64,000 nt of DNA from an uncultured virus (IMG/VR IMGVR_UViG_3300029705_000102) (IMGVR_UViG_3300029705_000102), one strand, 5' to 3'; positions 7 through 64,000 are shown, counted from the first letter of the stretch. Notes: generated by a model from the sequence alone, not told the origin. Made by a program: numbers and translations.

Positions 7-138
7 AGAAAGCACGAAATATCAGAAAGCACGAAATATCAGAAAGCACGAAATATCAGAAAGCACGAAATATCAGAAAGCACGAAATATCAGAAAGCAC
101 GAAATATCAGAAAGCACGAAATATCAGAAAGCACGAAA
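7..138. repeat. Tandem 17-bp direct repeat AGAAAGCACGAAATATC, 7 full copies plus a 13-bp partial copy
   Basis: Identical units start at 7, 24, 41, 58, 75, 92 and 109; partial copy at 126-138; no spacers. Confidence 0.97.
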
Positions 139-6853: not shown

Positions 6854-9100
6854 ATGGCAAATTTTAATCAAGTTGAAGATATAAAAAATTTAAATATCGA
6901 AAAATCTGATTATATGCTTGGTAAAGGATTGATGATGCCTTTTAATCCTACCAACTCTGGAAGCCGTAAAATAATGTATGGCTCTCAGGCAGAACAGAGA
7001 TTAGGTATAACAAAACCGGACGTTCCTTATGTAGGAACTGGATATGAATCATTATTTGGACAGAACTCTTCGTCTTTCAATAAAGTAGAAGAAGATCTGG
7101 AAGTAATTGGTTGTGTAGCAAAATTTGAATGGTGTCCTATGCATCATTATTTTGTATTTGCAATTAATAGAGATAATGGAGGACTTAGAGTATTTGAAAG
7201 AAAAGAATATAAGCATATTACTGAGAATTATGGTTATCTTCTTAATAATGATATGCTTGATGCTCTTGTCCCTGGAAATATGATTCCGAAAGGAACCGTT
7301 ATTCAGAAAAGCAATGCTTTTGATGAATATGATAATAGAATGGATGGTAAGAATCTTCTCACATTGTATTCTTCTTGTGAAGAAACAATGGAAGATGCTA
7401 TTGTCATCTCTGAGTCAGCATCAAAGAAGCTTTCATCTCCATTAATTAAGAAAGTGAGTATTATTGTTAATGATAATGATATTCCTCTTAATCTTTATGG
7501 AGATATTGAAAATTATAAAGTCTTCCCGGATATTGGAGAAGAAAGTGTAAATAGTATTTTATGTGGTTTCCGCAGAGAGAAGAAAGAGGAAGCACTGTTC
7601 TCACAATCATATGCAAGACTTAGAGAGCTTTCGATCTCTGATGAAAAATACACAGTTGCTGGAAGAGTTGTAGATGTAGACGTATATTGCAACGCTCCTG
7701 AAAAGCTTGGAGAATACGAATACAATACGCAGTTTAAGAAATATTATGATAATAATTTAAGAATGGCTAATCAAATTATAGACATTCTTGATCCTTATAT
7801 TGCAGAAGGTTGCGAAATGGAGTATGATCTTCAAGTTCTATACTATAACTGCAAAGGAATACTTTCTGGAAAGCATTATTTCTCTGAAAGAGAGTTTTCG
7901 AATATTGTTATTAATGTAACTTTAATTGAAGAAATTCCTGTATTAAGAGGTGATAAGCTTTCTAACCGTTATGGCGGTAAAGGTATTACAGCTAGAGTAA
8001 AGCCAGATGAATTAATGCCTAAAACATTAAGTGGAGAAACTGTTGATATTATTTTGAATATGTGTGGCGTTTATGGACGTGAAAATGCTGGACAGCTTTT
8101 TGAAATTACCGTCACATATATTTGCATGAAAATAATTGAATTCATCAATCTTCAGGTTTTGGACATTGATCAGTGTATTGAGCTTTATTTAAATCTTCTT
8201 CGTATTGTATCACCTTCTATGGCTGATTATACAGAAGAACAGTTCACTAAAATGACTGATGATGAATGCATAGCTTATATGGCAGGAATTTGTGCTACAG
8301 AAAAATGTATGTATCTTGCAATTGAGCCTATGAGTGAAGCAATGACACTTGATAAGGTCGAACAGCTTTATCAAGAATTTCCTTGGGCAAAAGCTGAACA
8401 TATGCTGATGCCTATTACAGATTCTGCTGGAGAGATTAAATATATTCCCTCTAGAAGGCCCTTAATTTATGGATACCAATATATCTATAGATTGAAGCAG
8501 TATGCAGAGGAGAAGTTTTCTGTAACTTCATTGTCTGCTACAAATATTCGTAATGAAAATAGTAAGAGCAAGAGTAGCAACAACTATAGAGCTCTATATT
8601 CTAGAACACCGATTCGTTTTGGCGATATGGAAACTGGAAACCTTATACACCTTGGAGCTGAACTTGTTGTTCAAATGCTTATGCTATATTCAACATCTCC
8701 TCATGCAAGACGTCTTGCTCAAGAGATGCTTACTGGCGATGCATTCAATATCGATGTTAAACTGGATGAGGAATCTAAGAATAGAAATGTTGAAATACTA
8801 AATGTTTATCTTAAAACAATGGGATTAAAATTAGTATTCAGCAGAAAACCTAAACAGTACGAACAACCGATGTTGATTGAACCGATGTACTTCTATGATA
8901 ATCCTCATAGACTTGTTGAAGGACTCATTCCGTTAAATAAAGATGAGAAATTTGATATGGAAGCTGAAGTTCTCAGACTTATTAAGGAAAAGAATCATGA
9001 ACAATGGGCTATGGATATCTATCCTATGGAGTTTACAAGAGAGCCTGGAGCTTATGAGAAAGAACTTGCTGCCAAAGAAGCAGCCAAGAAATCTGAATAA
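6854..9100 (+). CDS. Non-virion RNA polymerase beta subunit, C-terminal part
   Basis: RpoB motifs NSGSRKIM, EDAIVISES, GDKLSNRYGGKG, RLKQ...K, RFGDMETG. Confidence 0.92.
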   Translation: MANFNQVEDIKNLNIEKSDYMLGKGLMMPFNPTNSGSRKIMYGSQAEQRLGITKPDVPYVGTGYESLFGQNSSSFNKVEEDLEVIGCVAKFEWCPMHHYFVFAINRDNGGLRVFERKEYKHITENYGYLLNNDMLDALVPGNMIPKGTVIQKSNAFDEYDNRMDGKNLLTLYSSCEETMEDAIVISESASKKLSSPLIKKVSIIVNDNDIPLNLYGDIENYKVFPDIGEESVNSILCGFRREKKEEALFSQSYARLRELSISDEKYTVAGRVVDVDVYCNAPEKLGEYEYNTQFKKYYDNNLRMANQIIDILDPYIAEGCEMEYDLQVLYYNCKGILSGKHYFSEREFSNIVINVTLIEEIPVLRGDKLSNRYGGKGITARVKPDELMPKTLSGETVDIILNMCGVYGRENAGQLFEITVTYICMKIIEFINLQVLDIDQCIELYLNLLRIVSPSMADYTEEQFTKMTDDECIAYMAGICATEKCMYLAIEPMSEAMTLDKVEQLYQEFPWAKAEHMLMPITDSAGEIKYIPSRRPLIYGYQYIYRLKQYAEEKFSVTSLSATNIRNENSKSKSSNNYRALYSRTPIRFGDMETGNLIHLGAELVVQMLMLYSTSPHARRLAQEMLTGDAFNIDVKLDEESKNRNVEILNVYLKTMGLKLVFSRKPKQYEQPMLIEPMYFYDNPHRLVEGLIPLNKDEKFDMEAEVLRLIKEKNHEQWAMDIYPMEFTREPGAYEKELAAKEAAKKSE

Positions 9101-16361: not shown

Positions 16362-16484
16362 GAATACTGCTACTTCCTGTAGGAGTAGCAGTATTTATTT
16401 TTGTCATAAGAGTTTATTTTTATACAAATATAGACTCTTCAACAACATAATAAGACAATATCGAATGATATGGAGGTGTTTTTA

Positions 16485-19199
16485 ATGAAATTCGCATCTA
16501 TATATCTTTCAAATTATATAGGAATTTATAATGGTATGGGTTTATATGAAATCCATATCGATATGAGTAAGTGTAAAAATCGTATAACCATTATACGTGG
16601 TGATAATGGATCCGGAAAATCTACACTATCAAAGGCAATGAGCCTTTTCCCAGATCCTACAGATTCATTTATTCCTGGAATGCCGGCTAGAAAAGAGATA
16701 GTTCTTGTTGATGGAACTACTCTTTATAAACTTTCTTTTGTTCACGGTGTAACAAAAAATGGTGATAGAGAGCCAACAAAAGCATACATTACCAAAACAT
16801 TTGGTGATCAAATTATTGAATTAAATGAGAATGGTAATGTAACCTCATTTAAAGATATTCTTTATTCTGAGCTTGGACTTGATGCTAATTTTGCAGCTCT
16901 ATCTCAATTAAGTAACGATGATAGAGGTTTAGCAGATAAACGTCCTGCTGACAGAAAAAGATTTGTAAATTCTATTATTTCATCTTTAGATGTGTATAAT
17001 GGTATTTATAAAACTTTAACAAAAAGGTCTTCAAATTATAAATCTATGATAAATGCTGTTGTTGGAAAACTTAATGTATTGGGTGACGAAAATTCGCTTA
17101 ATGCAAATTTAGAAGCTCTTGAAGAAAAAATAAATGAGTTTCAAAATAGAAAAGATGCTGCAGTTGCTGCTCTTGCAAAAGAGCAATCAACGATACAGCT
17201 TCTTGATCCTGATGGCTCAATTCAAAATGCTAATGCTTTAGTTATTGCGGAGCTTGAATTAGCTGAAAAAGATGCGCGCCAGATTCAGTCTATTATAGAT
17301 GGACTTGTCATAGATAATGGTATTAAAGTATCTGATTATTATAAAGGATATAAAATAACTGTGGATAACAAGAATTCATTAATTATAGAAAACCAAATTG
17401 CTAGAAATAGTATCGAGTCTTTGATGCGGCAAAAAGAGCAAGAAGCTGAAGAGCTCTCTGGAAAGATCCAAAAACTTAATTCTTTACAGAGCGGTTATAA
17501 ATATGAGACTCTAAAATCTAAAGTAGATGAGTATGCAAAAGAACTTGGCACTATTGAAGCAACGTTTAGAGAAATTGGAATTCTAGATATGAATTCTATA
17601 AATAAAGAAGAGTATATTCTTGCGCTAGAGACCTTAAAAGATCTAGATATGTATATTTCTTCTTTTAAAGATTCTGTAAGATTAGAAGTATTAGAATCTA
17701 TTGTAAATGAATATATGCAAACTGGAATTATTCCAGAAAGAAAGAATCCTGCTATGATTAGTCGCGAAATTAAGAATGCAGAAAATGAAATCGATGGCTG
17801 CAATCTTGAAAAAGCGGCTATTAATTCTAGAATTGGTTTGCTCGATAAATTAAAACTCAGACCTGAAGGATGTGTTGATAATACTTGTCCATTTATAAAA
17901 GATGCATTAGAATTTTCTGCTGGAAATCCTAAAGATCGATTAGATAGTCTTGATGCTCTTATATATTCATTAAAAGGATTTATTAATATAGAGAATGAAA
18001 AGCTTACAGATGTAGAAGAGTATAATAATGCAATAAATCAATTTGCTATTATTGTACGAGAAATTGATAAGAATGGGGCTGTACTGTCCAAGATGCCAGA
18101 AGGAGAAATGTTTAAAAATAAATCTATCTTCTTTAGTCGACTTATTCAAGGTTATAGTTTTGAGTACATGCGTCATATTTATAAATATATTGATATGGCT
18201 AATCTATTCGATACCTATAAACAATATAAAACTATTTATGATAGTTATAATGAAGAGCTTAAATCTTATGAAGGAAAAGTTGAAATCATTATTGCATTAA
18301 ATGAAGATATTGATAATATCAATAAAACTATTAACGCTATAATGGACAAGATAGATCCTATAAATAAAGAAATTCTTGAAAGAGAAATAAAGATAGCTCA
18401 ACTTCAAGAGCTAGAAGGTGTCTATAATGCTATTATAATTCAATTAGAAAAGAAAGCCCCTATTGAAGCTAAAATAGCGGATTGTCGTTCTAAACTTCTA
18501 GATAATAATAGAAAAATGAATGACATTAATTCTGCATTAGCAAGAGCGGAAACAGCAAAAGAAAGTATTAATCAATGTAACTTTGCTTTAGCTCCTCTCA
18601 TGAAAGAAAGAGATAAGGTATCGCATTCTGTACAAATGATGAAAGATTATCTTACTGAAAAAGAAGAACTACAAGCAAATTATGACTTTATAGAAACCAT
18701 TAAATACTACTCGTCTCCTACAACAGGAATACAATTGGTATTTATGGAACTTTATATGGGTAAAATCATTGCATTAGCTAATGAACTATTGTCATTACTA
18801 TTTAATGGGCAATTTAAAATTCAGCCGTTTGTTATTAATGAATCCGAATTTAGAATACCTTGTTTAGGAAATGGATATTTAAATGATGATATATCCTCTA
18901 TGAGTAGTTCTCAGATTGGTATGATATCTATGATTCTTAGTTTTGCATTATTGCATCATTCTAGTTCTAAATATAATATTATTAAGCTTGATGAGATTGA
19001 TGGTCCTTTAGACTATAACAATCGTATGTATTTTACAGAAGTTCTTAATAGTATAATGGATATTATGGGAACAGAACAATGCATAATGATTTCTCATAAC
19101 TCAGAACTTCAAATTGATAATTCCGATGTAATCCTTCTCAGACATGATGAAAATAATATGGATTATGAAAGAGGAAATGTTATTTGGAGATTTCAGTAA
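16485..19199 (+). CDS. sbcC: SbcC/Rad50-like ATPase
   Basis: Walker A GDNGSGKS, long coiled coils, zinc-hook-like CVDNTCP, signature MSSSQ, Walker B/D-loop KLDEIDGPLD, ISH. Confidence 0.92.
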   Translation: MKFASIYLSNYIGIYNGMGLYEIHIDMSKCKNRITIIRGDNGSGKSTLSKAMSLFPDPTDSFIPGMPARKEIVLVDGTTLYKLSFVHGVTKNGDREPTKAYITKTFGDQIIELNENGNVTSFKDILYSELGLDANFAALSQLSNDDRGLADKRPADRKRFVNSIISSLDVYNGIYKTLTKRSSNYKSMINAVVGKLNVLGDENSLNANLEALEEKINEFQNRKDAAVAALAKEQSTIQLLDPDGSIQNANALVIAELELAEKDARQIQSIIDGLVIDNGIKVSDYYKGYKITVDNKNSLIIENQIARNSIESLMRQKEQEAEELSGKIQKLNSLQSGYKYETLKSKVDEYAKELGTIEATFREIGILDMNSINKEEYILALETLKDLDMYISSFKDSVRLEVLESIVNEYMQTGIIPERKNPAMISREIKNAENEIDGCNLEKAAINSRIGLLDKLKLRPEGCVDNTCPFIKDALEFSAGNPKDRLDSLDALIYSLKGFINIENEKLTDVEEYNNAINQFAIIVREIDKNGAVLSKMPEGEMFKNKSIFFSRLIQGYSFEYMRHIYKYIDMANLFDTYKQYKTIYDSYNEELKSYEGKVEIIIALNEDIDNINKTINAIMDKIDPINKEILEREIKIAQLQELEGVYNAIIIQLEKKAPIEAKIADCRSKLLDNNRKMNDINSALARAETAKESINQCNFALAPLMKERDKVSHSVQMMKDYLTEKEELQANYDFIETIKYYSSPTTGIQLVFMELYMGKIIALANELLSLLFNGQFKIQPFVINESEFRIPCLGNGYLNDDISSMSSSQIGMISMILSFALLHHSSSKYNIIKLDEIDGPLDYNNRMYFTEVLNSIMDIMGTEQCIMISHNSELQIDNSDVILLRHDENNMDYERGNVIWRFQ

Positions 19200-19265
19200 A
19201 TATTAAAGGCATGGATATACTCCATGCCTTTATTTTTTTTACTTATGACAATTATAACAAAATAT

Positions 19266-19665
19266 TAATCAGGCTTGCGTATTGGAGTTCGCCGTGGGCG
19301 CGCAGTTGGGTTCTTTTTCATTTTGTTTCCTTTCGGGTGAAAGTTTTCCATATATACCTCTGAAGTGTTTTTACGTTTTTGCCATGCGTTGAAACTCCAT
19401 TTTTTATATATCCTTTGTGAAATTTTTGCAAATCATAAAAAACTCCGTTTTTTAATATTTCTCCATACGCATTCTTTTTATCAGCCTGATTACTTACTAA
19501 GATAATAGGTCATCTGAGTCTGTCGATCTTCCTAGTCTTAGTTTGTATAATCCAAAGATCGCCAGGACGCAGCGAACCTTCAATTTTCCATTTGATTGGG
19601 GGAGGGGCGTCAATATATCATACAAAAAATGGATACAGCAGCATCTAAGAATAGATGCTGCTGTA
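19266..19665 (+). ncRNA. Putative late ncRNA carrying an array of anti-(SD+AUG) modules
   Basis: Promoter at 19256-19268; 5' end pairs with 19461-19492; five antisense translation-initiation modules at 19311-19446; terminator stem 19634-19665. Confidence 0.6.
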
Positions 19666-19670
19666 CGCTT

Positions 19671-20630
19671 TTAATATTCATTAATCGGAACATTTCCACC
19701 TTCCATAACAAGAGGCCAAACTTGATTGATATTTCTATTTCTGGCAATACCAGCATGAATATCAATAGTAGTATCTTCAAGTAGGAATGCATCAGGCCTC
19801 GGATAGTTAGGAATGCTTGCCCCAGTACTTCTATCAATTACATCGAAATATCTTTGACCCGTGGCCTGGTTGTATTTAACAACAACCTGTATATTAGGAT
19901 TCGATTCCATCCTCATTCTATTTTGTTCAGGGGTAAGTGCGGAACCACCTCCAATATTACTAGCAATCATTTCGACAGGAGCCACTCCAGGATTCTGTGA
20001 ATTTACTCCGATAGTAATATCCTGAATAGAAGGAACGGCAGGGGTATAACTTCCAACAGGAGTGTTGACAAACGATGAATACATATCCATAATACGCATA
20101 TCATCATTTTCATTTTGCTTATCAAGTTTAAGAGCTTTCATTCTATTAAGCTCAAGATTATGAGCCTGAGTAATTGTAGAATTAAGCTCTTTAATAGCAG
20201 AGATCTTTGTAGTAATAAGAGAGCTTGCTGATGCTGTAAGATTAGTAAGATACGTGAATTTATTCTTTAGTGTTTTACTAGAACGAACAGAATCAATATC
20301 CTGCTTAATTTCTGCATTAAGTTCATCTGCCTGAGCAATTGCTCCACGAATAAGAGCATTTGTTTCAGCATAAGATTTAGCATAATCAACTTCAACAACA
20401 GAAGTTGGTCCTTGAGGAGCTGGCTCGGAATCAACTCTTCCATCTATATTGAGTTTGGCTTTAACACGAGGATTAGACTTCTTTTTGTCATCTCCAGGCT
20501 TATTTCCTGAATCGATTTTTGAAGCATCATCACTATAGAAGAATCCGAAATCGACTCCTATTCCAGAGTCTTCTTTGTTTGCTGTCGTGTTGGTATCATT
20601 CATGATAAAGGGATCAATTAATTGTCTCAT
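19671..20630 (-). CDS. Hypothetical coiled-coil protein
   Basis: GGAGG RBS before MRQLIDPFIM; central heptad-rich helical region. Confidence 0.85.
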   Translation of the reverse strand: MRQLIDPFIMNDTNTTANKEDSGIGVDFGFFYSDDASKIDSGNKPGDDKKKSNPRVKAKLNIDGRVDSEPAPQGPTSVVEVDYAKSYAETNALIRGAIAQADELNAEIKQDIDSVRSSKTLKNKFTYLTNLTASASSLITTKISAIKELNSTITQAHNLELNRMKALKLDKQNENDDMRIMDMYSSFVNTPVGSYTPAVPSIQDITIGVNSQNPGVAPVEMIASNIGGGSALTPEQNRMRMESNPNIQVVVKYNQATGQRYFDVIDRSTGASIPNYPRPDAFLLEDTTIDIHAGIARNRNINQVWPLVMEGGNVPINEY

Positions 20631-20644
20631 TTTACTTTCCTCCA

Positions 20645-20883
20645 TTACTTTGATTTATTAAATGTGCATAGCATATAAACCCAGTAGCATATGCTTATTG
20701 GTAAAAATCCTATATTAGCAACTATAGCAAAAACCAAGATCCTAGCAAATTAGTACTTCCTTCTTCATATATTATTATAGGATTCAATACTTCACTTGCA
20801 GTTACATGCTGTGTTACAAGAATCCAAAAGAATGAAGTTAGTATATAAAATGCTATTGTAAAAGAAATAAAAACTTCAGCCAT
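20645..20883 (-). pseudogene. Small membrane protein gene, apparently frameshifted at a T5 run (20729-20733)
   Basis: MAEVFISF...GSWF stops early, while the shifted frame continues AIVANIGFLPISICYWVYMLCTFNKSK* up to the next gene's RBS. Confidence 0.5.
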
Positions 20884-21066: not shown

Positions 21067-21145
21067 TCTCAAATAAAAGGATAAGTGTATATTATAATAG
21101 TGCCAAAAACAAAATATTAATTAAAAAGAATAGGAGGGCAATCCT

Positions 21146-23098
21146 ATGATTAAAGGACGACAACCTGGAGATAATATTACCTTAATGAATACAATGTTCT
21201 TTAGGAGAATGGATCCAAAAGATGAGAAGTTTAAAGAATTCTTAGCTCTTATCTATAAGGATGCTGATACCGGAATAAAGTATATTGAGGAAAAAGTAGA
21301 TCCTGATTATGAATATTATATGATTAATCCTGATAAAAGGGTTGATTATAATAGATTATTTGTTTCGGCTGATGATGTAGAAGCCGTTCAAGTTCCTTAT
21401 AAAGAACTTGAAAAAGATATTGCAAAACGTGTTGGTTGCCTTGATTATTTTTATGAAAATATTAAAAATGGTAACCGTACAGAAAATAGAAAAATACATC
21501 AGCACCCGGATGTATTTAATAGTGATATGAATATTGAAGATCACTATAGATTTAGATTCGATAAAATGTATAAAAATGATACAGTTCCGATTACTAAATC
21601 TTTCTTCGATATTGAGGTTGATTCCATTAATATGGTAGGCGATTTCCCAGAGCCTGGAGAATGCCCAGTTAATGCCATCACATTAATACTGCAAGAACAG
21701 CAGCAGGTCTATACGTTCTTGCTTAGAAATAAGGCCAATCCTTTAATTGCAGAATTTGAAAATTCTGTATTAGACGGATCCATCTTTCCCGAACTTGAAG
21801 CATTTGTAGTAAATGCTGTAGGCGGACCGGAGATGGCTGCGAAATATAATATTAATTTCAAATATAACTTTCTTTTTTATGATGAAGACGATGAAATTAA
21901 TCTCATCAAGGACTTATTTAATGCCTTAAACAATTTTAAACCAGACTTTGTATTGGCATGGAATATGGGATTCGACGTTCCATACCTTATTGCAAGATGC
22001 CAAAAGCTCGGATATGCTCCTGAAGATATTATGTGTCATCCTGATTTTAAGAATAAAATTGCACAATATTTTGTAGATGAAAGAATGAAAAGTGAATTCG
22101 CAGAACGTGGAGACTTTGCTTTAATCTCATCATATTCCGTATTCCTAGATCAGATGATACAATTCGCTTCTAGACGTAAAGGACAAAGTAGATTTATCTC
22201 ATTTACACTTGACTTTATTGGTGAAGCCGTAGCTAAAGTACGAAAACTTGATTATAAGCATATTACTACAAACATTGCTGAGCTTCCGTATAAAGATTAT
22301 AAAACATTCGTGTTCTATAATATTATCGATACCATTGTTCAGCATTGCATTGAATGTATGACTGGTGATATTGATTATGTATTTGGAAAGTCTCTTCTTA
22401 ATAATACCAGATATTCTAAAACTCATAGACAAACTGTCTATTTGACAAATAGAGGTTGTAAAGAATTTAGAAAAGAAGGATTTATAATTGGAAACAATGT
22501 CAATAAGTTTAATCCGCCACCGACCGAAAAATTCCCAGGTGCTTATGTAGCGGATCCTACTAAATTGGATAATACAAGTAGGCTTACTATATTTGGAAGA
22601 TTCGTAGATCTGTTTAATAATCTAGATGACTTCGACTATGCAAGCCTTTATCCATCTATTCTTCGTCAGTTTAATATAGCAGCTCACACCCAAATTGGAA
22701 AGCTCCTGTTGCCCAATAAGGTTCATGATAAAGAGAATCCTGCGAATAGAGATGACTGGAGTAGAGCTGGAGCATTTATGGAAGATATGCAGTCTCAGGT
22801 TTGGCTAGAGGTCGCTTCTAGATGGTTTAGCCTAGCAGACTATACTAAACTATATTTTGAAGTTATAGAGTTCTTTAGAGAAATGGCTGTAGCTTTAAAT
22901 GGAGTTCAGAAGTATACTAAAGATGGATTAATCATTCCAATGATTGATGTAATTGATATAACGAAAAATAGACTATACGAGCCTATGATATTTAATGATA
23001 GTCGTAGAGTTATTGATGAGCGCTATGTAGCGTATGATATTCAAAGATGGGAGGCATGGAGAAATGCTGCAATTACAAATCCAAACCAGCACTACTAA
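21146..23098 (+). CDS. Family B DNA polymerase, N-terminal subunit (3'-5' exonuclease plus motif A)
   Basis: ExoI FFDIEVD, ExoII AWNMGFDVPYL, ExoIII YNIID; FPGAYV; motif A DFDYASLYPSI; no motif B or C. Confidence 0.9.
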   Translation: MIKGRQPGDNITLMNTMFFRRMDPKDEKFKEFLALIYKDADTGIKYIEEKVDPDYEYYMINPDKRVDYNRLFVSADDVEAVQVPYKELEKDIAKRVGCLDYFYENIKNGNRTENRKIHQHPDVFNSDMNIEDHYRFRFDKMYKNDTVPITKSFFDIEVDSINMVGDFPEPGECPVNAITLILQEQQQVYTFLLRNKANPLIAEFENSVLDGSIFPELEAFVVNAVGGPEMAAKYNINFKYNFLFYDEDDEINLIKDLFNALNNFKPDFVLAWNMGFDVPYLIARCQKLGYAPEDIMCHPDFKNKIAQYFVDERMKSEFAERGDFALISSYSVFLDQMIQFASRRKGQSRFISFTLDFIGEAVAKVRKLDYKHITTNIAELPYKDYKTFVFYNIIDTIVQHCIECMTGDIDYVFGKSLLNNTRYSKTHRQTVYLTNRGCKEFRKEGFIIGNNVNKFNPPPTEKFPGAYVADPTKLDNTSRLTIFGRFVDLFNNLDDFDYASLYPSILRQFNIAAHTQIGKLLLPNKVHDKENPANRDDWSRAGAFMEDMQSQVWLEVASRWFSLADYTKLYFEVIEFFREMAVALNGVQKYTKDGLIIPMIDVIDITKNRLYEPMIFNDSRRVIDERYVAYDIQRWEAWRNAAITNPNQHY

Positions 23099-23973: not shown

Positions 23974-26367
23974 ATGGCAAAAGATAATAAAGCTATAGCT
24001 AGAGCTAATCGCAATATTCAAAACCTTGCTAATGGCATTAATCAAGGTATGGACGATCTCTATAGGAGCACATATCTAACAACGCCACAGCAAGGAAAGG
24101 ATCTTAGAGATCTCGGTAGTCGGATTAACTCTAGTATTGATAATATTGTAAATAGAAATATGGATACAATTGGCATGCCAAGCGTATCCAAATTGTATAC
24201 GCGTATTGCAGCTACTCAAGGAAGAGGTACAAAGAATAATAGAGTCATTAGTGAGCTTGAAAGCCTATTTGATAATGGTCTTATTAACGATGATATCTAT
24301 AGCTTGTTTATGAGTAATAGATATTTGAAAGAGCTTGATAATGAAATTGATACTGTTTGTAAGTACATGCCCAAACTCGAAGAAGCACTTCTAGTACAAA
24401 AGGATTGTGTTCTTTCAGCAGATCATTTCTCTAAAGATTTTATTAATATCACTAGTGCAGCAGGTTCCACAGAACTTGATGGAAGTACTTTTGCAGAAAG
24501 AATATCTGATCTTAAGAAAAAGTATAAACTTGCTGAATTAGTTGATCATATTTATGAAGAAACTTCTAAATATGGTGAAAAATTTGTATATAGGGTTCCT
24601 TATAGTACTGCAATTGCAAGACTTCTTGCAACTAAAGCAAATACTACTCTTGTGAAAAATGAAAGCACAGGCGAAACAAGAGAATTTGAAATGAATACTT
24701 ACTTTACTATTCATATGGATAATAAATCATTTGCTATCAAAGAAGCTACAATTGGAACTGAGATGGTTAATGAAAGTGCTACTCATATAGTAAAGAAAGA
24801 GAATAAGAAGACTGGAACGTTTTCTGAAGTAGAGTCTGCAATTCTTGGTGAAAAAGAACAGTTTGATCTTAATATTGAAATTTGTAAGTCTGGTATTATA
24901 GAATCTGCTGTTGCAAATGTAAAAGCAGCTTTTAAGAAAAAGATGAAATTCTCTGCAGACTCCATGAACAAAATTTATGAGCAAACCATTTTAAGAGAGT
25001 CTGGAAATTCAAAGACACCAGAAGCGAAAGGAAATCTTGAATTTGACGATAAGAACCCTTTAGATGCAAGGTTGATTGCTAATGATGGATTAGTCACAGG
25101 AGAAGCACCATCGCTTCCTGATGTTAAAGCTCCCGGATGCGTAATCCAGAAGTTGCCTAGAGAAAATACTATTCCCATCTATATAGATGATATGTGTATG
25201 GGATACTATTATTTCGAGGTAAGAACTGTAGATGATTCTGAATCATTCTTTGGATTTAAGAATATTCTTGGTGACCCTCTAACAAATATGCGTGGAGATA
25301 AGCGTAATACATTTAATTCTGTAGATACACAAAGGCAAGATGACGCGATAAAATATGTTGCAGGTCAGCTGTCTGGCTTTATTGATAAGCAATTTGTAAA
25401 TAATAATCAGGATCTTGCTAAAGAGATTTATATGATTCTTAAATACAATGATCTTTTCAATACGCCATCGATTGATAGAATTAAAGTTACATTTGTACCT
25501 CCGGAAGATATGGTTCATTTCTATTTTAGACTTGATCCACAAACTCACAGAGGTATCTCAGATCTTGATAAGTCCCTTATACCTGCAAAGATTTATTCGA
25601 GCTTGTATATAACAAACTCTATTGGAATTCTTACAAGAGGTCAAGACAAGAGAGCATATTATGTAAAACAAACAGTTGATACCAATATTGCTCAAACACT
25701 GCTTAATACTATTGCACAGATTAAGCAAGGTAACTTTGGAATTAGGCAGTTCCAAAATATAAACAATATCCTTAATATTACAGGTCGTTTCAATGACTTT
25801 GTAATTCCCACAAATGCTTCAGGCGATCCTCCTATTAGTGTAGAAGTTATACCTGGGCAAGAGTTTAACACTTATGAAGATTTGCTTGATAAGCTTGAAG
25901 AAATGGCTATCAATAGTACTGGAATACCGATAGAGATTATTCAGGCGAGACAGTCTGTTGATTATGCTATGCAACTTACAATGTCTTCTAGCAAAGTTCT
26001 AAGATTCTGTTATAAGAGACAGGAGCTATTTGAAGATGATCTTGCTGAATTGATCGGTCCTCTATATAATTATGAATATAGAGATACCGCAAGTATAGAA
26101 GTTAAACTTCCGCCTCCTAGTTTCATAAATGTAACAAATACAAATCAGCTTGTTGATAATACTAAAACATTTGTAAATTCTATTGTAGAAGTCGAATTGG
26201 CTAATGAGGATAATGAGGCTCTTAAGAATGAGTACACCATGGAATTAATTAAACATTATCTTGGAAGCCATTTGGATATTAAGTCTCATGAAGATATACT
26301 CAATAGATGTAGGTTAAAGGTTGCTGCAAAAGCTGATGAATCCCACACGGATGATGGTGGATTTTAA
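23974..26367 (+). CDS. Portal protein
   Basis: KRAYYV...DFVIPTNASGDPPISVEVIPG...AINSTGIP resembles the T4 gp20-type portal core; late-type promoter at 23923-23935. Confidence 0.75.
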   Translation: MAKDNKAIARANRNIQNLANGINQGMDDLYRSTYLTTPQQGKDLRDLGSRINSSIDNIVNRNMDTIGMPSVSKLYTRIAATQGRGTKNNRVISELESLFDNGLINDDIYSLFMSNRYLKELDNEIDTVCKYMPKLEEALLVQKDCVLSADHFSKDFINITSAAGSTELDGSTFAERISDLKKKYKLAELVDHIYEETSKYGEKFVYRVPYSTAIARLLATKANTTLVKNESTGETREFEMNTYFTIHMDNKSFAIKEATIGTEMVNESATHIVKKENKKTGTFSEVESAILGEKEQFDLNIEICKSGIIESAVANVKAAFKKKMKFSADSMNKIYEQTILRESGNSKTPEAKGNLEFDDKNPLDARLIANDGLVTGEAPSLPDVKAPGCVIQKLPRENTIPIYIDDMCMGYYYFEVRTVDDSESFFGFKNILGDPLTNMRGDKRNTFNSVDTQRQDDAIKYVAGQLSGFIDKQFVNNNQDLAKEIYMILKYNDLFNTPSIDRIKVTFVPPEDMVHFYFRLDPQTHRGISDLDKSLIPAKIYSSLYITNSIGILTRGQDKRAYYVKQTVDTNIAQTLLNTIAQIKQGNFGIRQFQNINNILNITGRFNDFVIPTNASGDPPISVEVIPGQEFNTYEDLLDKLEEMAINSTGIPIEIIQARQSVDYAMQLTMSSSKVLRFCYKRQELFEDDLAELIGPLYNYEYRDTASIEVKLPPPSFINVTNTNQLVDNTKTFVNSIVEVELANEDNEALKNEYTMELIKHYLGSHLDIKSHEDILNRCRLKVAAKADESHTDDGGF

Positions 26368-43653: not shown

Positions 43654-44103
43654 ATGCGAATTCCAGACACATTAACAAGACAGCAAGCAATGTATTTGCT
43701 TGAAAAATATTTATTAGACGAAGAATCAACCCCTAATTTATCACTAGACCAGTTAACAAATGGCTATATAAAAGCAGATCTTGTGCAGCAAGTAAACTGT
43801 GATAGAGTTCATAGAATTTTATATAAGCATAGTAAAAAATATAGAAATCAATCGCCTCATAAGTCTGAGCTTTTAAATTATGAACAAGCTATAGGCAAAA
43901 TAATGGGATATTTGCTTGGAGACAATTATTATATCGTAGATCCAGTAAATATGGAGCAAGGAAATTCTGTAATTGTACATGACATTTTAAAGCAATATTC
44001 TAAGCGTTATAGAAAAGAGCTTAGAGAAGAGTCTAAAATGGATACTTACTTTAGATTATTTGGCCGTACTATAATAATCAAAAAGAAGGAGAAGCGTAAA
44101 TGA
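43654..44103 (+). CDS. Hypothetical protein
   Basis: GGAGGT RBS; coupled to the downstream polymerase gene; both promoter types upstream. Confidence 0.8.
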   Translation: MRIPDTLTRQQAMYLLEKYLLDEESTPNLSLDQLTNGYIKADLVQQVNCDRVHRILYKHSKKYRNQSPHKSELLNYEQAIGKIMGYLLGDNYYIVDPVNMEQGNSVIVHDILKQYSKRYRKELREESKMDTYFRLFGRTIIIKKKEKRK

Positions 44104-46205
44104 AAGATAATATGCGAACTTCATTAGCAAGATATCCAGAAAGTGATATCTTGTATAATTATAAGAAAGTAGCAATGGAAATGCTACATTTTAATTTTCC
44201 GTCATTGAGTGAGGTTGAGTTAGCAGCGGCTGTTGATAACTCTATTTCTAAGCATTTTAAAGATACTGCCGTTCAGATTGATAATAATTATAAAAAGAAA
44301 ACAATTGATATGACATTAAGAGGTCTTGCAGATTATATAATCTCAAGAGAACCAATTATAACCTCTTATGGAGTTCTATTTAACAGACACGGTGTATTGC
44401 CGAATCCTATATATACAATGGTCGATGGATTTATTAATGACCGTAAGAAAATGAAAAAAGAAATGTTTAAGTATCCGAAAGGATCTGAAGATTTCGAGAA
44501 ATACAATTTGCTTCAGTTACTTTTGAAGATAGACAGTAATGGATTCTATGGCGCCACAGGCCAGTATAGTTGTATATATTATAACCTCTATACTGCATCT
44601 AGTGTAACAACTCAAGGAAGATCTTGTAACTCTGCAGCTGCTCTATTCTTTGAAAGCTTCTTAAATAATAATGTTCCTCATGCATCTATGAATGAGCTTA
44701 TTACATTCATTCATAATGTGCTTAATGAGAAGCATCATTATAACAGCAATGATATTATTACCAACCATGCAACTCTTGATGAAACATTCTTCCAGTTAAT
44801 GTCCACTACTGGATTCGGATGGGTACCTTCGTATGATGAGATGTATATCGTTTGGGATATTCTTGCTAAATTAAATCAAGATGAATTAGATAGGCTTTTC
44901 TACAAGAATAATCTATTCCACTTTATCGATAATATTCCAGTAAAACAGTCTATTTTGTTTATTCTTCAGCAATTATCTGCTCCCTTCATGGATCCGAATG
45001 AGCCGCCAGAGGAAATTCAAGAAGCACTTGATGAATTTTTGGCAGTTGTTCAAGAGTATGTTTATTATGATAAACAAATTACAGATCGTATTGAGAAGAT
45101 GGCATCCCTAGTTCGTTCCGTATCTATTATTCAAGACACAGACTCTGCTATCATTAGCCTTGATGGTTGGTATCAGTATGTAAGACAATTATGTGTCGGT
45201 GTGCCGATGAATATTAAGAATGAAGTTGTTGATGCTCTTGAATTTATTGAAAGCGGAGAAGTTAAAACATCTGAATCTAAACAAAAGATTATGGACTATA
45301 GCTTCTTAGACGATGATATGATTGAAATGGATAGACTGATAGATCCTATGGTTATCACACCTCAGGATGGACTCAGATACTCTATTATCAATATTCTGGC
45401 ATACTGTATTGGTAAGCTTGTCAATGATTATATGGAAAAGTATGCAAGAAATGCTCATAGTGATAATGAACGTCCTTGCCTACTTGTTCTCAAGAACGAA
45501 TTCCTATTTAAGCGTGTTCTTATTACAGATGCTAAAAAGCACTATGCATCAAAGATGGAACTTCAGGAAGGAAATATTATTCCTGAAGATAAATCCCTTG
45601 ATATTAAGGGCATGGATGCATTTGTTAAATCCAGTACTAATAATGCAATTAAAGAAAGATTGAAAAAGATTCTTTATGATGATATTCTTAATTCAGAATC
45701 TATAGATCAGATTAGGGTTTTAAAGGATATAGCTATCGTTGAAAAAGAAATCTTTGATTCTATCAATAATGGCGAAAAGAGATTCTTTAAACCTGTAAAG
45801 GTAAAGTCTCTTTCTTCTTATGAAAATCCTATGCGTATTCAGGGTATTGTAGCTTCCTATGCATATAATGCATTGCATGAACCTGGAACTGAAGCATTGG
45901 ATATGAGCATAAGAAATTCTGTTGATATCGCAAAAGTTGATATTAATATGAAAAATATCGATCGTATTAGAGAGTCATTTCCTTATGTATATGAGAAGGC
46001 TATACAACTTATGAAGACAAAGGAATTTTCTACAGGAATATCTTCTATAGCTATTCCTTCTAACGAGCCTGTTCCTGGATGGATTCTGCCATTTATTGAA
46101 TACGCTCCCATTATTAAGGACAATGTATCAGGATTCCCGATTGAGTCTATAGGGCTATTTAGAGGTCCAGATACAAATAATTCTACTAATATAATTAAAT
46201 TTTAA
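44100..46205 (+). CDS. Family B DNA polymerase, C-terminal catalytic subunit
   Basis: Motif B QLLLKIDSNGFYG, VTTQGR, motif C QDTDS, KKHYA, DIKG. Confidence 0.9.
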   Translation: MKDNMRTSLARYPESDILYNYKKVAMEMLHFNFPSLSEVELAAAVDNSISKHFKDTAVQIDNNYKKKTIDMTLRGLADYIISREPIITSYGVLFNRHGVLPNPIYTMVDGFINDRKKMKKEMFKYPKGSEDFEKYNLLQLLLKIDSNGFYGATGQYSCIYYNLYTASSVTTQGRSCNSAAALFFESFLNNNVPHASMNELITFIHNVLNEKHHYNSNDIITNHATLDETFFQLMSTTGFGWVPSYDEMYIVWDILAKLNQDELDRLFYKNNLFHFIDNIPVKQSILFILQQLSAPFMDPNEPPEEIQEALDEFLAVVQEYVYYDKQITDRIEKMASLVRSVSIIQDTDSAIISLDGWYQYVRQLCVGVPMNIKNEVVDALEFIESGEVKTSESKQKIMDYSFLDDDMIEMDRLIDPMVITPQDGLRYSIINILAYCIGKLVNDYMEKYARNAHSDNERPCLLVLKNEFLFKRVLITDAKKHYASKMELQEGNIIPEDKSLDIKGMDAFVKSSTNNAIKERLKKILYDDILNSESIDQIRVLKDIAIVEKEIFDSINNGEKRFFKPVKVKSLSSYENPMRIQGIVASYAYNALHEPGTEALDMSIRNSVDIAKVDINMKNIDRIRESFPYVYEKAIQLMKTKEFSTGISSIAIPSNEPVPGWILPFIEYAPIIKDNVSGFPIESIGLFRGPDTNNSTNIIKF

Positions 46206-55888: not shown

Positions 55889-55955
55889 TGTATACGCACC
55901 TCCTAGTTTCATTTATCGATATGTTGGCAGTTTAAGACTTTTTAGGCATTAAAAA

Positions 55956-56330
55956 GATATTACAAAGCCAACGATATAATGAGAGATTATTTCGATTACG
56001 GGTATGTAAGCGTGTGGATACAGGTGATCGATACTTTTATCAAAATGTATTTTGCATTTGATAAGAGGACATCTCTTATATAAGTTTATTAAGAACTCGA
56101 GAGCTTAATAAACTTTGGGAGGATATGAAAGCTGAAGAAGTATATTTCGTAAATATATAGACCCTAAACTATATATTTGCTATAGCGATATATACGTCTT
56201 TTCTAGATTTGGAGGTGATGGCCCAAATCTAGAGAAAATAATGAGATGACTAATGAATGAAATGTATGTAAGGTCCCTTTATACAGGGCCCGGCCTATAG
56301 GCTGAGTCTAAGCAGCCTATAGGTTTTACT
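55956..56330 (+). ncRNA. Candidate structured non-coding region made of serial hairpins
   Basis: No long ORF; five or more inverted repeats; terminator-like stem ending near 56328. Confidence 0.35.
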
Positions 56331-56511
56331 TTTTAAAAATAACATATATTTGAAGCTCGTGAGATTTTTTCTTTTCTGGTTTTATTCCTTTCACCCGTGT
56401 ACTCAGTCCTAGAGTGCACGGGGCTTTTATTTTATATAATAGCTATATATTATAAAAATAAGAAGTACGAAACTTCTTAATAAAAAAAAATAAATTTTGG
56501 AGGACTACGAA

Positions 56512-59731: not shown

Positions 59732-60454
59732 ATGGGTCTTTTCTTTCCAAGATATAAGGTAAAACCACTTAATGAAGTAGAATTAGACGGTCAATCTTCT
59801 GAAAATGAAGATGGTACTGAAGGTACTACAGACTATAGTGCTCAAGCTGAAGATGGAGACAATACTACAGCTACTACGGAAGAGCCTACCGATAATAATG
59901 ATAATCCCCCTGAAGACCAAAGCACTTCTAATAATGAAGAGGATAATACTTCAGCAGATGATACTGGTTTAGGTGATGGTATGGAAAATCCAGAGGATGA
60001 TTCTACAGATTATTCTGCCATGGGAGATGAGGGAAGTAATGATAATACTAATGATAATAACAGTAATAGTACACCCTCGACAAATAACGATGGCGAACAA
60101 AGTTCTATAGATGAACTTAAACGTCAAGAAGAAGAAATGTACGCAGATTTAACTCCTGAGCAATTAGATATCAAACATCGTGAACTGAAGACTCAATTCT
60201 TATCAATGTTTGATTTGACAACTCAGATTATTGAAAGAATTAATGATGCTGCAACAACAGAAGAAAATATGCCTATTATAGAATTTGTATCTAATAAGCT
60301 CTCTTCGCTTAGAGACATGATGACAGATTATATAAATAGTGTATATAAAACTAAGTCTTATATTGAAAATTCCATTAATTATAATAAATTTCTTGCTATT
60401 TTGAACGGAATTAATAAAATTCTAGAGGAAATGAATCAAAAAGAAGTTAAATAA
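59732..60454 (+). CDS. Acidic low-complexity protein, possible scaffold/core protein
   Basis: D/E/N/T-rich N-terminal half and helical C-terminus; directly upstream of the capsid gene. Confidence 0.6.
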   Translation: MGLFFPRYKVKPLNEVELDGQSSENEDGTEGTTDYSAQAEDGDNTTATTEEPTDNNDNPPEDQSTSNNEEDNTSADDTGLGDGMENPEDDSTDYSAMGDEGSNDNTNDNNSNSTPSTNNDGEQSSIDELKRQEEEMYADLTPEQLDIKHRELKTQFLSMFDLTTQIIERINDAATTEENMPIIEFVSNKLSSLRDMMTDYINSVYKTKSYIENSINYNKFLAILNGINKILEEMNQKEVK

Positions 60455-60560
60455 TGTTTTTCAATTCTGACTTATCATAACATCATGGTAAAAATATTGT
60501 CCGTAATCAGGGCGTATTTGAAACATCTTATATTAAGCTTAATAGAAAGGAGCATTTAAT

Positions 60561-62348: not shown

Positions 62349-62376
62349 TTAAGAAAGATACACTCTAAATAAAAAT

Positions 62377-62410
62377 AAGACAAGAGGGCTTCGGCTCTCT
62401 TGTCTTTTTC
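62377..62410 (+). terminator. Intrinsic terminator after the capsid gene
   Basis: 13-bp stem with cUUCGg loop and T tract. Confidence 0.85.
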
Positions 62411-62488
62411 TTTTATTAGCTGTCAACTATTAAATAATCTTATATTTACGATATAATGAAAAATCCCAAGATTGGAGGAAACACAATC

Positions 62489-63661: not shown

Positions 63662-63812
63662 CAATAAAGTAAAAGTTACTATCTCCCTGCCGTGATGGAA
63701 CTTTGCCGTAAACCGCGTGTTTGTGTTTTCATGTTGTTGTTCGATTTTCTCCTCCGTGTAAGTTTATATTTAAAATACCAGTAGAGGCATAGCCTCTACT
63801 GGTATGATTTTT
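63660..63812 (+). ncRNA. Putative late small RNA with an anti-(SD+AUG) module
   Basis: Promoter AACA ATAAAG TAA, identical to 1467-1479; TTTTCAT...TTCTCCTCC; terminator stem 63775-63805. Confidence 0.5.
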
Positions 63813-63813
63813 G

Positions 63814-63999
63814 TTACTCTATATATCTTCCAATAATTTGTGGTTTAGTTATGTCCCCTCCAATAAATACAACTATCCACTTTGAGCCTGCTGGAATATA
63901 ATCAGAATAATCATCAATGCATAATGCTTTATTAAGCGGTATTTCAACATAATTACTTATAGTAATATTAGAAATTTCTAGGGCTGTCTTTTTTGTATT
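63814..63999 (-). CDS. 3' end of a gene with a gp5/VgrG-type OB-fold motif (truncated by the window edge)
   Basis: Translation ...YIPAGSKWIVVFIGGDITKPQIIGRYIE* matches the PxxGxxVxVxFxxGDxxxPxxxG pattern. Confidence 0.6.
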   Translation of the reverse strand, partial: NTKKTALEISNITISNYVEIPLNKALCIDDYSDYIPAGSKWIVVFIGGDITKPQIIGRYIE

Positions 64000-64000
64000 T

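What the first reader, a model, noticed from the sequence alone, without database searches (positions are those of the whole stretch)
19256..19665. Late ncRNA carrying a tandem array of five antisense translation-initiation modules
Seen: this ORF-free gap starts with the late promoter AACA-AAATAT-TAA. Its 5' end pairs with a downstream segment (19266-19275/19483-19492 and 19276-19287/19461-19471). Inside are five back-to-back segments whose reverse complements read as SD + spacer + ATG + first codons: GAAAGGAaacaaaATGAAAAAG (19311-19334), GAGGTatatATGGAAAAC (19343-19360), GGAGtttcaacgcATGGCAAAA (19376-19398), AAAGGAtatataaaaaATGGAG (19395-19416) and GGAGttttttATGATTTGC (19428-19446). Each has different spacer and codon sequence, like separate guides. 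Inference: a multi-target antisense RNA that blocks translation of several specific mRNAs (host genes or phage early genes). I found no exact target in this window. I do not recognise this architecture as described.
Basis: partly seen in the sequence, partly recalled or inferred. Interest (0 to 1): 0.88.

Follow-up and report, generated by a model that had tools for sequence, protein, structure and literature searches.

The report
Phage late RNA with anti-start-site array
An uncultured giant gut phage carries, between two converging genes, what looks like a late-made, protein-less RNA of about 400 bases whose clamped middle part holds five mirror images of ribosome start sites; it may silence several messages at once, but neither the RNA nor a convincing target has been shown.

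Summary
The gap 19200-19670 lies between convergent genes of a 224-kb AR9-like jumbo phage. Five SD+spacer+ATG motifs lie on its minus strand within 140 nt. No other place in the genome, on either strand, is this dense. None of 5000 dinucleotide shuffles reached five. The closing stem and both flanking terminators are real.

The plus strand is the better candidate transcript. An AACA-N6-TA site scores like the phage's own gene-proximal sites and puts the start on the second base of the closing stem. Five units in related phages show the same layout of terminator, about 25 nt, promoter-like motif and 5' closing helix, but with unrelated interiors.

The multi-target antisense reading is only partly supported. 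Phage start regions match no better than start regions match each other. A 22/22 match of module 2 to the GyrB-type gene start of three rumen Lachnospiraceae is a lead, not evidence, because equally strong hits occur in 2 of 120 other family genomes. Relatives lack the array. Translated minus-strand mini-ORFs remain a live rival. No RNA data exist. The scan noted the same RNA earlier on near-identical DNA.

The parts
19204..19232 (.). Terminator hairpin after the SbcC-like gene (12-bp stem, then T8 on the + strand); also flagged on the minus strand
   Evidence: (I2)
19256..19267 (+). Late-type promoter-like motif AACA-AAATAT-TA; predicted transcription start at A19267
   Evidence: AR9 consensus AACA-(6N)-TA/G with the last base as start (PMC5312081). 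75 of 220 such sites lie in the 10.2% of the genome that is intergenic. Core matrix score 13.0, rank 37 of 220. The 14-mer AACAAAATATTAAT recurs with its predicted start 27 nt upstream of the polymerase gene start at 21146.
19266..19287 (+). 5' arm of the closing helix
19461..19492 (+). 3' arm of the closing helix (19461-19471 and 19483-19492, with an 11-nt internal bulge 19472-19482)
19311..19334 (+). Module 1; complement reads GAAAGGAAACAAAATGAAAAAGAA (ATG at 19321, internal to mini-ORF 3)
19343..19364 (+). Module 2; complement reads TTCAGAGGTATATATGGAAAAC (ATG at 19351). 22/22 identical to the SD, start and first three codons of a GyrB-type gene in three rumen Lachnospiraceae genomes (a lead only)
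19376..19398 (+). Module 3; complement reads GGAGTTTCAACGCATGGCAAAAA (ATG at 19385, internal to mini-ORF 2)
   Evidence: 20-mer scan found 0 matches in genome contigs
19395..19416 (+). Module 4; complement reads AAAGGATATATAAAAAATGGAG (ATG at 19400)
19428..19446 (+). Module 5; complement reads GGAGTTTTTTATGATTTGC (ATG at 19436). Its anti-SD CUCC sits in the loop of a predicted A/U hairpin
19392..19454 (+). Two copies of a 15-nt direct repeat AAACTCC(A/G)TTTTTTA, 48 nt apart (19392-19406 and 19440-19454), each carrying an anti-SD
   Evidence: D1
19496..19632 (+). 3' domain. Three collinear blocks are shared with the second unit of the L009/L012 lineage: TCTGTCGATC (19519-19528), GATCGnnAGGACGCAG (19557-19572) and GGCGTCA (19606-19612). 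They form CGATC/GATCG and GACGC/GCGTC helices around variable hairpins
   Evidence: MAFFT did not align the blocks; found in only two lineages
19634..19665 (.). Bidirectional terminator hairpin (14-15 bp). The T-run is better on the minus strand (CCATTTTTTG) than on the plus strand (CGCTTTTAAT)
19404..19436 (-). Rival reading: mini-ORF 1, MICKNFTKDI*
19371..19400 (-). Rival reading: mini-ORF 2, MEFQRMAKT*. It starts 3 nt after the stop of mini-ORF 1, in the same frame
19265..19351 (-). Rival reading: mini-ORF 3, MENFHPKGNKMKKNPTARPRRTPIRKPD* (28 aa, basic)
   Evidence: no Pfam or PHROG match

Best explanation
The gap encodes a plus-strand non-coding RNA of about 400 nt. The phage's own non-virion-type RNA polymerase would make it from an AR9-type late promoter, starting at A19267 and ending at the hairpin 19634-19665.

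The first 22 nt pair with 19461-19492. This clamps a 172-nt A/U-rich interior, a natural 'paired-termini' design. The interior carries five different sequences complementary to SD + spacer + AUG + first codons. A second domain (19496-19632) is shared with one related lineage, and a terminator follows.

The most likely action is base-pairing of the modules with translation-initiation regions of mRNAs, which would block 30S binding. Host messages are more likely targets than phage messages.

Shown: the motifs, their rarity, the stem, the terminators, the promoter-like site and the layout shared with relatives. Inferred: transcription, the strand, the antisense action and the targets.
For: (1) The array is unique in the genome and was reached by 0 of 5000 shuffles.

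(2) The AACA-N6-T[AG] motif is enriched in intergenic DNA: 75 of 220 sites lie in 10.2% of the genome, many 22-70 nt before gene starts. The 19256 site has a core score of 13.0 against a training median of 13.3; 1 of 144 coding-region sites scores as high.

(3) The phage has an RNA polymerase beta-like ORF at 6854-9100. Its nearest cultured relatives by SbcC are Listeria phage LPJP1 and Bacillus phages AR9 and PBS1.

(4) In 6 of 9 related gaps examined, this one included, an AAC[AT]-N6-T[AG] motif lies 17-28 nt after a plus-strand terminator, and the RNA from that start opens with a helix that closes a 100-300-nt domain. Across the nine gaps the motif occurs 9 times on the plus strand and 3 times on the minus strand.

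(5) No late-type motif lies on the minus strand of this gap.

(6) The plus RNA folds better than shuffles: z = -4.10, with 0 of 100 shuffles as good. Mean unpaired probability is 0.51-0.56 for modules 1-4, above the whole-RNA mean of 0.40. The anti-SDs of modules 2, 3 and 5 fall in unpaired stretches or loops.

(7) A second late-promoter sRNA candidate in the same window (56352-56440) exposes UCCUUUC between a 5' hairpin and its terminator.

(8) There is precedent for the design: csRNAs carry sequences that can pair with ribosome-binding sites and AUG (PMC4507080, passages), and engineered paired-termini antisense RNAs exist (PMC1635301, abstract).
Against: No expression data exist.

The full-context matrix score of the promoter site is mediocre: 7.7, rank 78 of 220, near the 90th percentile of coding-region sites. 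Three of the six 'promoters' in the related units are AACT, not AACA. I relaxed the pattern after seeing the data.

Both strands of 19262-19495 fold equally well (z = -4.14 and -4.66), so folding does not choose a strand. The plus-strand tail of the terminator is weak.

No phage target stands above the null. The host lead is not corroborated. In G001-G003 the hits of modules 1, 4 and 5 (33.7, 34.6 and 31 bits) are typical of what 103 of 121 Lachnospiraceae genomes give. In other genomes the hits fall on unrelated genes.

Related units carry 6 antisense start sites against 4.0 expected, so there is no enrichment. The array is lineage-specific and has no comparative support.

Module 5 is mostly paired (unpaired probability 0.35).
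Confidence: 0.4

Rival explanations
1. The minus strand is the functional one. It would be a small mRNA with three tightly packed, translated mini-ORFs of 10, 9 and 28 codons, giving micropeptides or drop-off-type minigenes. The plus-strand late RNA, if made, would be its cis-antisense switch.
For: All five motifs have SD cores and spacings like the phage's real genes. Mini-ORF 2 starts 3 nt after the stop of mini-ORF 1 in the same frame, like coupled genes. The minus strand is A-rich, like coding strands here. The module-2 20-mer occurs in six bacterial genomes, each time at the start of an ORF, so it is a working start-site sequence. The minus strand also has paired ends and folds as well (z = -4.66). 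A weak sigma-70-like site (TCGACA-16-TATCTT, 19526-19499) would start a minus-strand RNA near the stem.
Against: No late-type promoter lies on the minus strand. The sigma-70-like site is one of 4 found where shuffles give 5.3. A strong terminator lies between the 324-aa gene and the mini-ORFs. The peptides match no Pfam or PHROG family. Relatives have no equivalent ORFs. Two of the five start sites are internal and redundant for coding.
Confidence: 0.2
2. The plus-strand RNA is real but acts generically, not through five specific guides. It would be a decoy that pairs with the SD and AUG of many mRNAs, or competes with 16S rRNA for SD sequences, and so dampens SD-led translation late in infection.
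For: What the modules share is exactly the generic part of a start region: anti-SD plus CAU, at spacers of 5, 6, 6, 9 and 10 nt. Their matches to real start regions are at background level. A second late sRNA candidate exposes the 16S-like UCCUUUC. Two modules share a 15-nt repeat.
Against: The phage's own late mRNAs use the same strong SDs and would be hit too. Related units are not enriched in anti-SD or anti-start motifs. A generic decoy would not need CAU at a fixed spacing.
Confidence: 0.15
3. The stretch has no function of its own. It would be fast-evolving filler in an insertion hot spot between convergent genes, with the start-site-like motifs being scars of lost small genes or of captured DNA.
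For: The gap is hypervariable. It is 34-46 nt (a single terminator) in distant relatives, 120 to about 1400 nt of unrelated sequence in closer ones, and holds small genes in others. The array occurs in one lineage only.
Against: 0 of 5000 shuffles reach five motifs. The ATGs are 15-36 nt apart, too close to be scars of ordinary genes. No protein family or homologue was found for the minus-strand frames and there is no DNA match in phage records. The promoter, clamp and terminator layout is kept across lineages. Near-identical copies occur in contigs of all four runs laid on the stretch (4 studies).
Confidence: 0.15
4. It is a DNA-level element, such as a replication origin, packaging site or cruciform, and not an RNA.
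For: It sits in the replication-gene neighbourhood (SbcC, polymerase) and has a long inverted repeat.
Against: There are no iterons or repeats beyond one 15-nt pair. Terminators and a promoter-like motif frame it. This reading does not explain the start-site pattern.
Confidence: 0.03

Closest known systems
csRNAs (cia-dependent small RNAs) of Streptococcus pneumoniae (PMC4507080; passages read)
   Same: Firmicute sRNAs that carry sequences able to pair with both the ribosome-binding site and the AUG of target mRNAs. Several act additively on one or more targets.
   Different: csRNAs are 87-151 nt siblings with one anti-start region each, encoded by the host. Here five different regions sit on one phage RNA of about 400 nt inside a closing helix. 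There is no Rfam match.
Engineered paired-termini antisense RNAs (PTasRNA; PMC1635301; abstract read)
   Same: Flanking inverted repeats create a double-stranded clamp around an antisense insert; in the paper this made antisense RNAs abundant, stable and effective.
   Different: PTasRNAs are man-made and carry one long antisense insert. This one is natural, with five short modules, a second 3' domain and an unknown target.
RNAIII of Staphylococcus aureus
   Same: A large multi-domain regulatory RNA that blocks several mRNAs by pairing C-rich loops with their SD regions.
   Different: It has no sequence or Rfam relation. RNAIII also encodes a peptide and is a host quorum-sensing effector.
Late transcription units of Bacillus phage AR9 (PMC5312081; passages read)
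   Same: Promoter AACA-(6N)-TA/G with the start at the last base. AR9 also has late promoters that drive antisense transcripts.
   Different: AR9 has small genes, not an RNA locus, downstream of its SbcC gene. SbcC identity is only 25.6%.
Lambda bar minigenes
   Same: For the rival reading: very short SD-led ORFs in a phage whose translation, not whose product, matters.
   Different: bar ORFs are two codons long. Translation is not shown here.

Membership tests
AR9-type late (non-virion RNA polymerase) transcription unit | Promoter AACA-(6N)-T[A/G] directly upstream of the start | tested here: met
   19256-19267 is AACA-AAATAT-TA. Core matrix score 13.0 against a training median of 13.3. The full-context score is only 7.7.
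AR9-type late (non-virion RNA polymerase) transcription unit | The phage encodes multisubunit RNA polymerase subunits and uses the motif genome-wide | tested here: met
   RNA_pol_Rpb2_6 hit in ORF 6854-9100. 75 of 220 motif sites lie in the 10.2% of the genome that is intergenic.
AR9-type late (non-virion RNA polymerase) transcription unit | Mapped 5' end and late timing of the transcript | not testable with these tools
   No RNA holder was listed.
Trans-acting antisense sRNA that blocks translation initiation | Complementarity to the SD/AUG region of a target beyond what controls give | tested here: inconclusive
   Phage: best substrings 10, 11, 10, 9 and 15 nt against a null median of 11. 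Host lead: 22/22 to a GyrB-type start in G001-G003, but hits of 41 bits or more occur in 2 of 120 other family genomes.
Trans-acting antisense sRNA that blocks translation initiation | Pairing regions accessible in the folded RNA | tested here: met
   Mean unpaired probabilities 0.56, 0.53, 0.54, 0.51 and 0.35 against 0.40 overall; the anti-SDs of modules 2, 3 and 5 lie in loops or linkers. This is a prediction only.
Catalogued RNA families (csRNA, RNAIII, 6S, tmRNA, ROOL/GOLLD and the rest of Rfam 15) | Covariance-model match at or near the gathering score | tested here: not met
   0 matches at gathering score in the window. The best score in 19100-19800 is 22.9 bits against a threshold of 60. 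None in the relatives' gaps. No tRNA or tmRNA.
Type I toxin-antitoxin locus (small toxin mRNA plus antisense RNA) | A small hydrophobic membrane peptide encoded opposite an antisense RNA | tested here: not met
   The 28-aa peptide is basic and hydrophilic and the 9- and 10-aa peptides are not hydrophobic. No family match.
MITE or other mobile element with terminal inverted repeats | Several copies in the genome | tested here: not met
   Apart from itself, only two 32-35-nt reverse-strand matches at 88-89% identity, over the two palindromic terminator hairpins. No match in phage records.

The most novel reading that the evidence does not exclude
Related rumen jumbo phages keep a fixed 'chassis' at this spot: late promoter, 5'-3' clamp and terminator. 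They swap its interior. In this phage the interior is a natural multi-guide antisense cassette that shuts off several host messages at once late in infection. One of them would be the GyrB-type topoisomerase subunit of a rumen Lachnospiraceae host, whose start region matches module 2 at 22 of 22 bases.
Probability: 0.2. Interest if true: 0.85.

Novelty: new variant of a known kind. Interest (0 to 1): 0.6.

Why it matters
If the reading holds, this would be a natural phage RNA that packs several independent anti-start-site guides into one clamped transcript. Engineers reached a similar design on their own, with paired-termini antisense RNAs. It would also belong to a fast-evolving RNA locus in a large and barely studied group of AR9-like gut phages.

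It would give a way to read host targets, and perhaps hosts, directly from phage sequence. It would also add an RNA layer to host shut-off by jumbo phages.

If the mini-ORF rival holds instead, the locus would be an unusually dense cluster of translated micro-ORFs.

Tried and rejected
- **RNA and tRNA searches.** Rfam at gathering and E-value thresholds on the window and on relatives gave nothing relevant. The tRNA/tmRNA scan found none.
- **Phage records.** blastn of the gap gave no match. tblastn of the 324-aa neighbour gave no match.
- **Minus-strand frames.** Pfam and PHROGs on the 63-residue stop-to-stop frame and on the 28-aa ORF gave nothing. The homologue search of the 63-residue frame gave no candidate. 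The 28-aa peptide is too short for that tool.
- **Sequencing runs.** No RNA holder was listed. Contigs of four DNA runs cover the gap with 0-5 substitutions each. Every indel listed in the gap lies in a homopolymer run or in the terminator-hairpin loop (19217, 19232, 19233, 19448, 19475, 19624). The substitution table was cut, so this is too little variation for a covariation or coding test.
- **More family members.** An 18-mer of the stem found only the twin contig. My domain-2 pattern was mis-specified for the window and returned 75 stretches; after filtering only the two known L009-lineage contigs remained. MAFFT did not align the shared blocks of domain 2, so I built no covariance model.
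- **Host link.** Three 20-kb pieces of the window (bases 1-60000) were searched against G001-G003. They gave no spacer-like exact match, only 33-nt (91%) and 42-nt (88%) matches inside large ORFs. The remaining ~164 kb of the phage genome (window 60001-64000 and everything outside the window) was not tested.
- **AR9.** It has small genes, not an RNA locus, after its SbcC gene.
- **SD-like 4-mers alone.** They are not significantly enriched in the gaps; only 1 of 5 gaps has p < 0.05.
- **Strand by folding energy.** It gave no discrimination.
- **Literature.** Two full-text searches listed no paper describing a phage RNA with an array of anti-start-site modules. I read listings only.

Full report
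**Setting.** The window is bases 37583-101582 of a 223,865-bp IMG/VR virus record. The genome is 35% G+C and uses strong AGGAGG-type Shine-Dalgarno (SD) sequences: 158 of 198 long ORFs have an SD-like core upstream. It encodes an RNA polymerase beta-like protein (6854-9100), a split family-B DNA polymerase, a NAD-dependent ligase and a RecA-like protein. By SbcC similarity its nearest cultured relatives are Listeria phage LPJP1 and Bacillus phages AR9 and PBS1, at 25-26% identity. Near-identical DNA occurs in cattle-gut and faecal metagenome runs of 13 studies; none of the runs is RNA. The finding lies in the 471-bp gap between the convergent SbcC-like gene (16470-19199, +) and a 324-aa gene of unknown family (19671-20645, -). 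Each gene is followed by a hairpin that scores as a terminator on both strands.

The inverted repeat 19266-19275/19483-19492 is perfect, and 19276-19287 pairs with 19461-19471 with one bulge. The minimum-energy fold uses both. I counted ATGs preceded by GGAG, GAGG or AGGA at a spacer of 4-10 nt. The genome has 1.65 such sites per kb on the + strand and 1.0 per kb on the - strand. The only 140-nt windows with five are on the minus strand at 19261-19490. None of 5000 dinucleotide shuffles of the stretch reached five; the means were 0.10 and 0.22 and the maxima 2 and 3. Read on the minus strand, the five motifs form three mini-ORFs. These are MICKNFTKDI, MEFQRMAKT (with an internal SD-led M) and the 28-aa MENFHPKGNKMKKNPTARPRRTPIRKPD (also with an internal SD-led M).

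**Which strand?** The motif AACA-N6-T[A/G] is the late-promoter consensus of AR9, with the last base as the start (PMC5312081, passages). In this genome 75 of its 220 occurrences lie in the 10.2% that is intergenic, many of them 22-70 nt before gene starts. I trained a matrix on 39 such gene-proximal sites, leaving this gap out; it gives AACAT-nnn-A-n-TAA. On the core positions the 19256 site scores 13.0. The training median is 13.3, the site ranks 37 of 220, and 1 of 144 coding-region sites scores as high. With 8 nt of upstream and 16 nt of downstream context it scores only 7.7, rank 78. Its 14-mer AACAAAATATTAAT recurs at 21108, with its predicted start 27 nt upstream of the polymerase gene start. 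The predicted start, A19267, is the second base of the closing helix. No such motif lies on the minus strand of the gap. A weak sigma-70-like site on the minus strand (19526-19499) is one of four found where shuffles give 5.3. Folding does not choose a strand: for 19262-19495, z is -4.14 on the plus strand and -4.66 on the minus strand.

**Relatives.** I used an alignment of the 324-aa protein to fetch the same gap from viral and metagenome contigs. In distant relatives (37-44% identity) the gap is a single terminator of 34-46 nt or holds small genes. In closer ones (52-75%) it holds 120 to about 1400 nt of ORF-poor, G+C-richer sequence that does not align between lineages and matches no Rfam family.

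The layout recurs even though the sequence does not. In 6 of 9 gaps examined (this one, L011, L012 unit 2, L013, L030 and L033) an AAC[AT]-N6-T[AG] motif lies 17-28 nt after a plus-strand terminator. The RNA that would start there opens with a helix closing a domain of 100-300 nt, and it ends at a terminator. Across the nine gaps the motif occurs 9 times on the plus strand and 3 times on the minus strand. One caveat applies: three of the six motifs read AACT, and I widened the pattern after seeing the data.

The 3' domain of this RNA shares three collinear blocks with unit 2 of the L009/L012 lineage: TCTGTCGATC, GATCGnnAGGACGCAG and GGCGTCA. They form two helices around hairpins of different sequence. 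I found these blocks in those two lineages only.

The anti-start-site array itself is not shared. Nine related units carry 6 such motifs on the complement against 4.0 expected.

**Targets in the phage.** For each module I took the longest common substring with 193 SD-led gene starts of the phage. The values are 10, 11, 10, 9 and 15 nt. Real start regions compared with each other give a median of 11 and reach 15 or more in 13 of 193. The 15-mer is the start of an ORF at genome position 112312. Four modules at or below the null median and one in its top 7% is what five random start-site-like sequences would give.

**Targets in hosts.** I scanned one genome for each of 185,579 species with 20-mers of two modules. 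Module 3 gave 0 matches. Module 2 gave 6, all at ORF starts. Three of these are Lachnospiraceae: the record titled 'Lachnospiraceae bacterium G41', a water-buffalo rumen MAG and another MAG. In all three the match extends to 22 of 22 bases and covers the SD, the ATG and three codons of a type IIA topoisomerase B subunit (Pfam DNA_gyraseB, HATPase_c and Toprim). In the same three genomes:
- module 4 matches 23 of 26 bases at the start of an ABC-F-type ATPase;
- module 1 matches 18 of 18 at a solute-binding lipoprotein (two of the three genomes);
- module 5 matches 18 of 19 over the SD region of ATP synthase epsilon, with the ATG 2 nt out of register.

These genomes were chosen through module 2, so only the other modules could corroborate, and they do not. 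The same 239-nt query finds a match at E <= 0.3 in 103 of 121 Lachnospiraceae genomes. It finds hits of 41 bits or more in 2 of the 120 others, and an exact 21-mer for module 1 in one of them. Of 20 such places fetched from 19 genomes (one of them G001 itself), 19 gave an alignment, and those that begin an ORF begin unrelated genes, none of them gyrB or the ABC-F gene. Ordinary 20-kb pieces of the window also give 47-53-bit matches to G001-G003. The GyrB-type match is therefore a lead that fits the habitat. It is not evidence.

**Mechanism.** I put about 0.7 on a real plus-strand late RNA and about 0.4 on the full reading, in which its clamped interior pairs with start regions of mRNAs and blocks initiation. 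The predicted fold leaves the anti-SDs of modules 2, 3 and 5 in linkers or loops. A second late-promoter sRNA candidate at 56352-56440 exposes UCCUUUC between a 5' hairpin and its terminator (z = -4.40). This suggests that anti-SD display is a theme in this phage. The design has two precedents. csRNAs pair with ribosome-binding sites and AUG (PMC4507080). Engineered paired-termini antisense RNAs are made stable and effective by a terminal clamp (PMC1635301, abstract).

**Rivals.** There are four:
- translated minus-strand mini-ORFs, perhaps with the late RNA as their antisense switch;
- a generic anti-SD decoy;
- functionless hypervariable filler;
- a DNA-level element.

The mini-ORF rival is the serious one. 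The motifs are, by construction, good start sites. Mini-ORF 2 follows mini-ORF 1 like a coupled gene. Nothing here shows which strand is transcribed.

**Novelty.** Antisense sRNAs against start regions and late ncRNAs in AR9-like phages are known kinds. An array of five different anti-start modules inside a terminal clamp, sitting in a locus whose interior is swapped between related phages, is a new variant. Two full-text searches listed no description of it (listings only). Earlier notes of this scan describe the same RNA on near-identical DNA and reached a similar reading without a target. They are not independent evidence. New here are the genome-wide and shuffle statistics, the start-region null, the shared layout in relatives, and the GyrB-type lead together with the family-wide null that deflates it.

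Noticed in passing
window 56341-56440 (+): A second late-promoter sRNA candidate: AACATATATTTG, then an RNA of about 85 nt with a 5' hairpin, a single-stranded UUAUUCCUUUCA (16S-like anti-SD) and an 11-bp terminator hairpin with a U tail. z = -4.40, with 0 of 200 shuffles as good.
   Followed up: partly
window 55913-56340: A stretch of about 430 bp with few ORFs, upstream of that sRNA candidate, holding G+C-rich hairpins (for example ggcctataggctgagtctaagcagcctatagg). It is unexplained.
   Followed up: no
window 7-138: A perfect tandem array: 7.8 copies of the 17-nt unit AGAAAGCACGAAATATC.
   Followed up: no
genome-wide, e.g. window 4022, 21099, 100386, 162247: The near-palindromic word TATTATAATAT occurs at 7 places, mostly intergenic, 45-60 nt before several gene starts. 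It overlaps the AR9 early-promoter consensus AAATATATATTAT in TATATTAT and is a candidate early promoter.
   Followed up: partly
L030:1002-2400 (metagenome contig; 62% identical neighbour gene): Here the same gap is about 1.4 kb with no long ORF and at least four terminator-bounded units. Two of the units are diverged paralogues, sharing ...GAATTTGCACTTGACAGATATCATATCACTTGAAAATCAAGCTA....
   Followed up: partly
L005:1090-1256 (-): A group I intron model hit below threshold (36.4 bits against a gathering score of 50; E = 6e-6) in a related phage, about 2.7 kb from the gap.
   Followed up: no
window 21146-23098 and 44100-46205: The family-B DNA polymerase appears split into two ORFs 21 kb apart. 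The first matches polymerase PHROGs and the second matches divDNApol/DNA_pol_B.
   Followed up: no
window 25877-25909 and 58641-58682: A 33-nt (91%) and a 42-nt (88%) match to all three Lachnospiraceae genomes G001-G003, inside large ORFs of unknown family. They may be conserved-motif coding sequence.
   Followed up: no
genome position 112302-112316 (window-equivalent 74720-74734, outside the window): The best phage match of any module: 15 of 15 bases of module 1 over the SD and ATG of an ORF that starts MNNNENPFVEK. It lies within the null range.
   Followed up: partly
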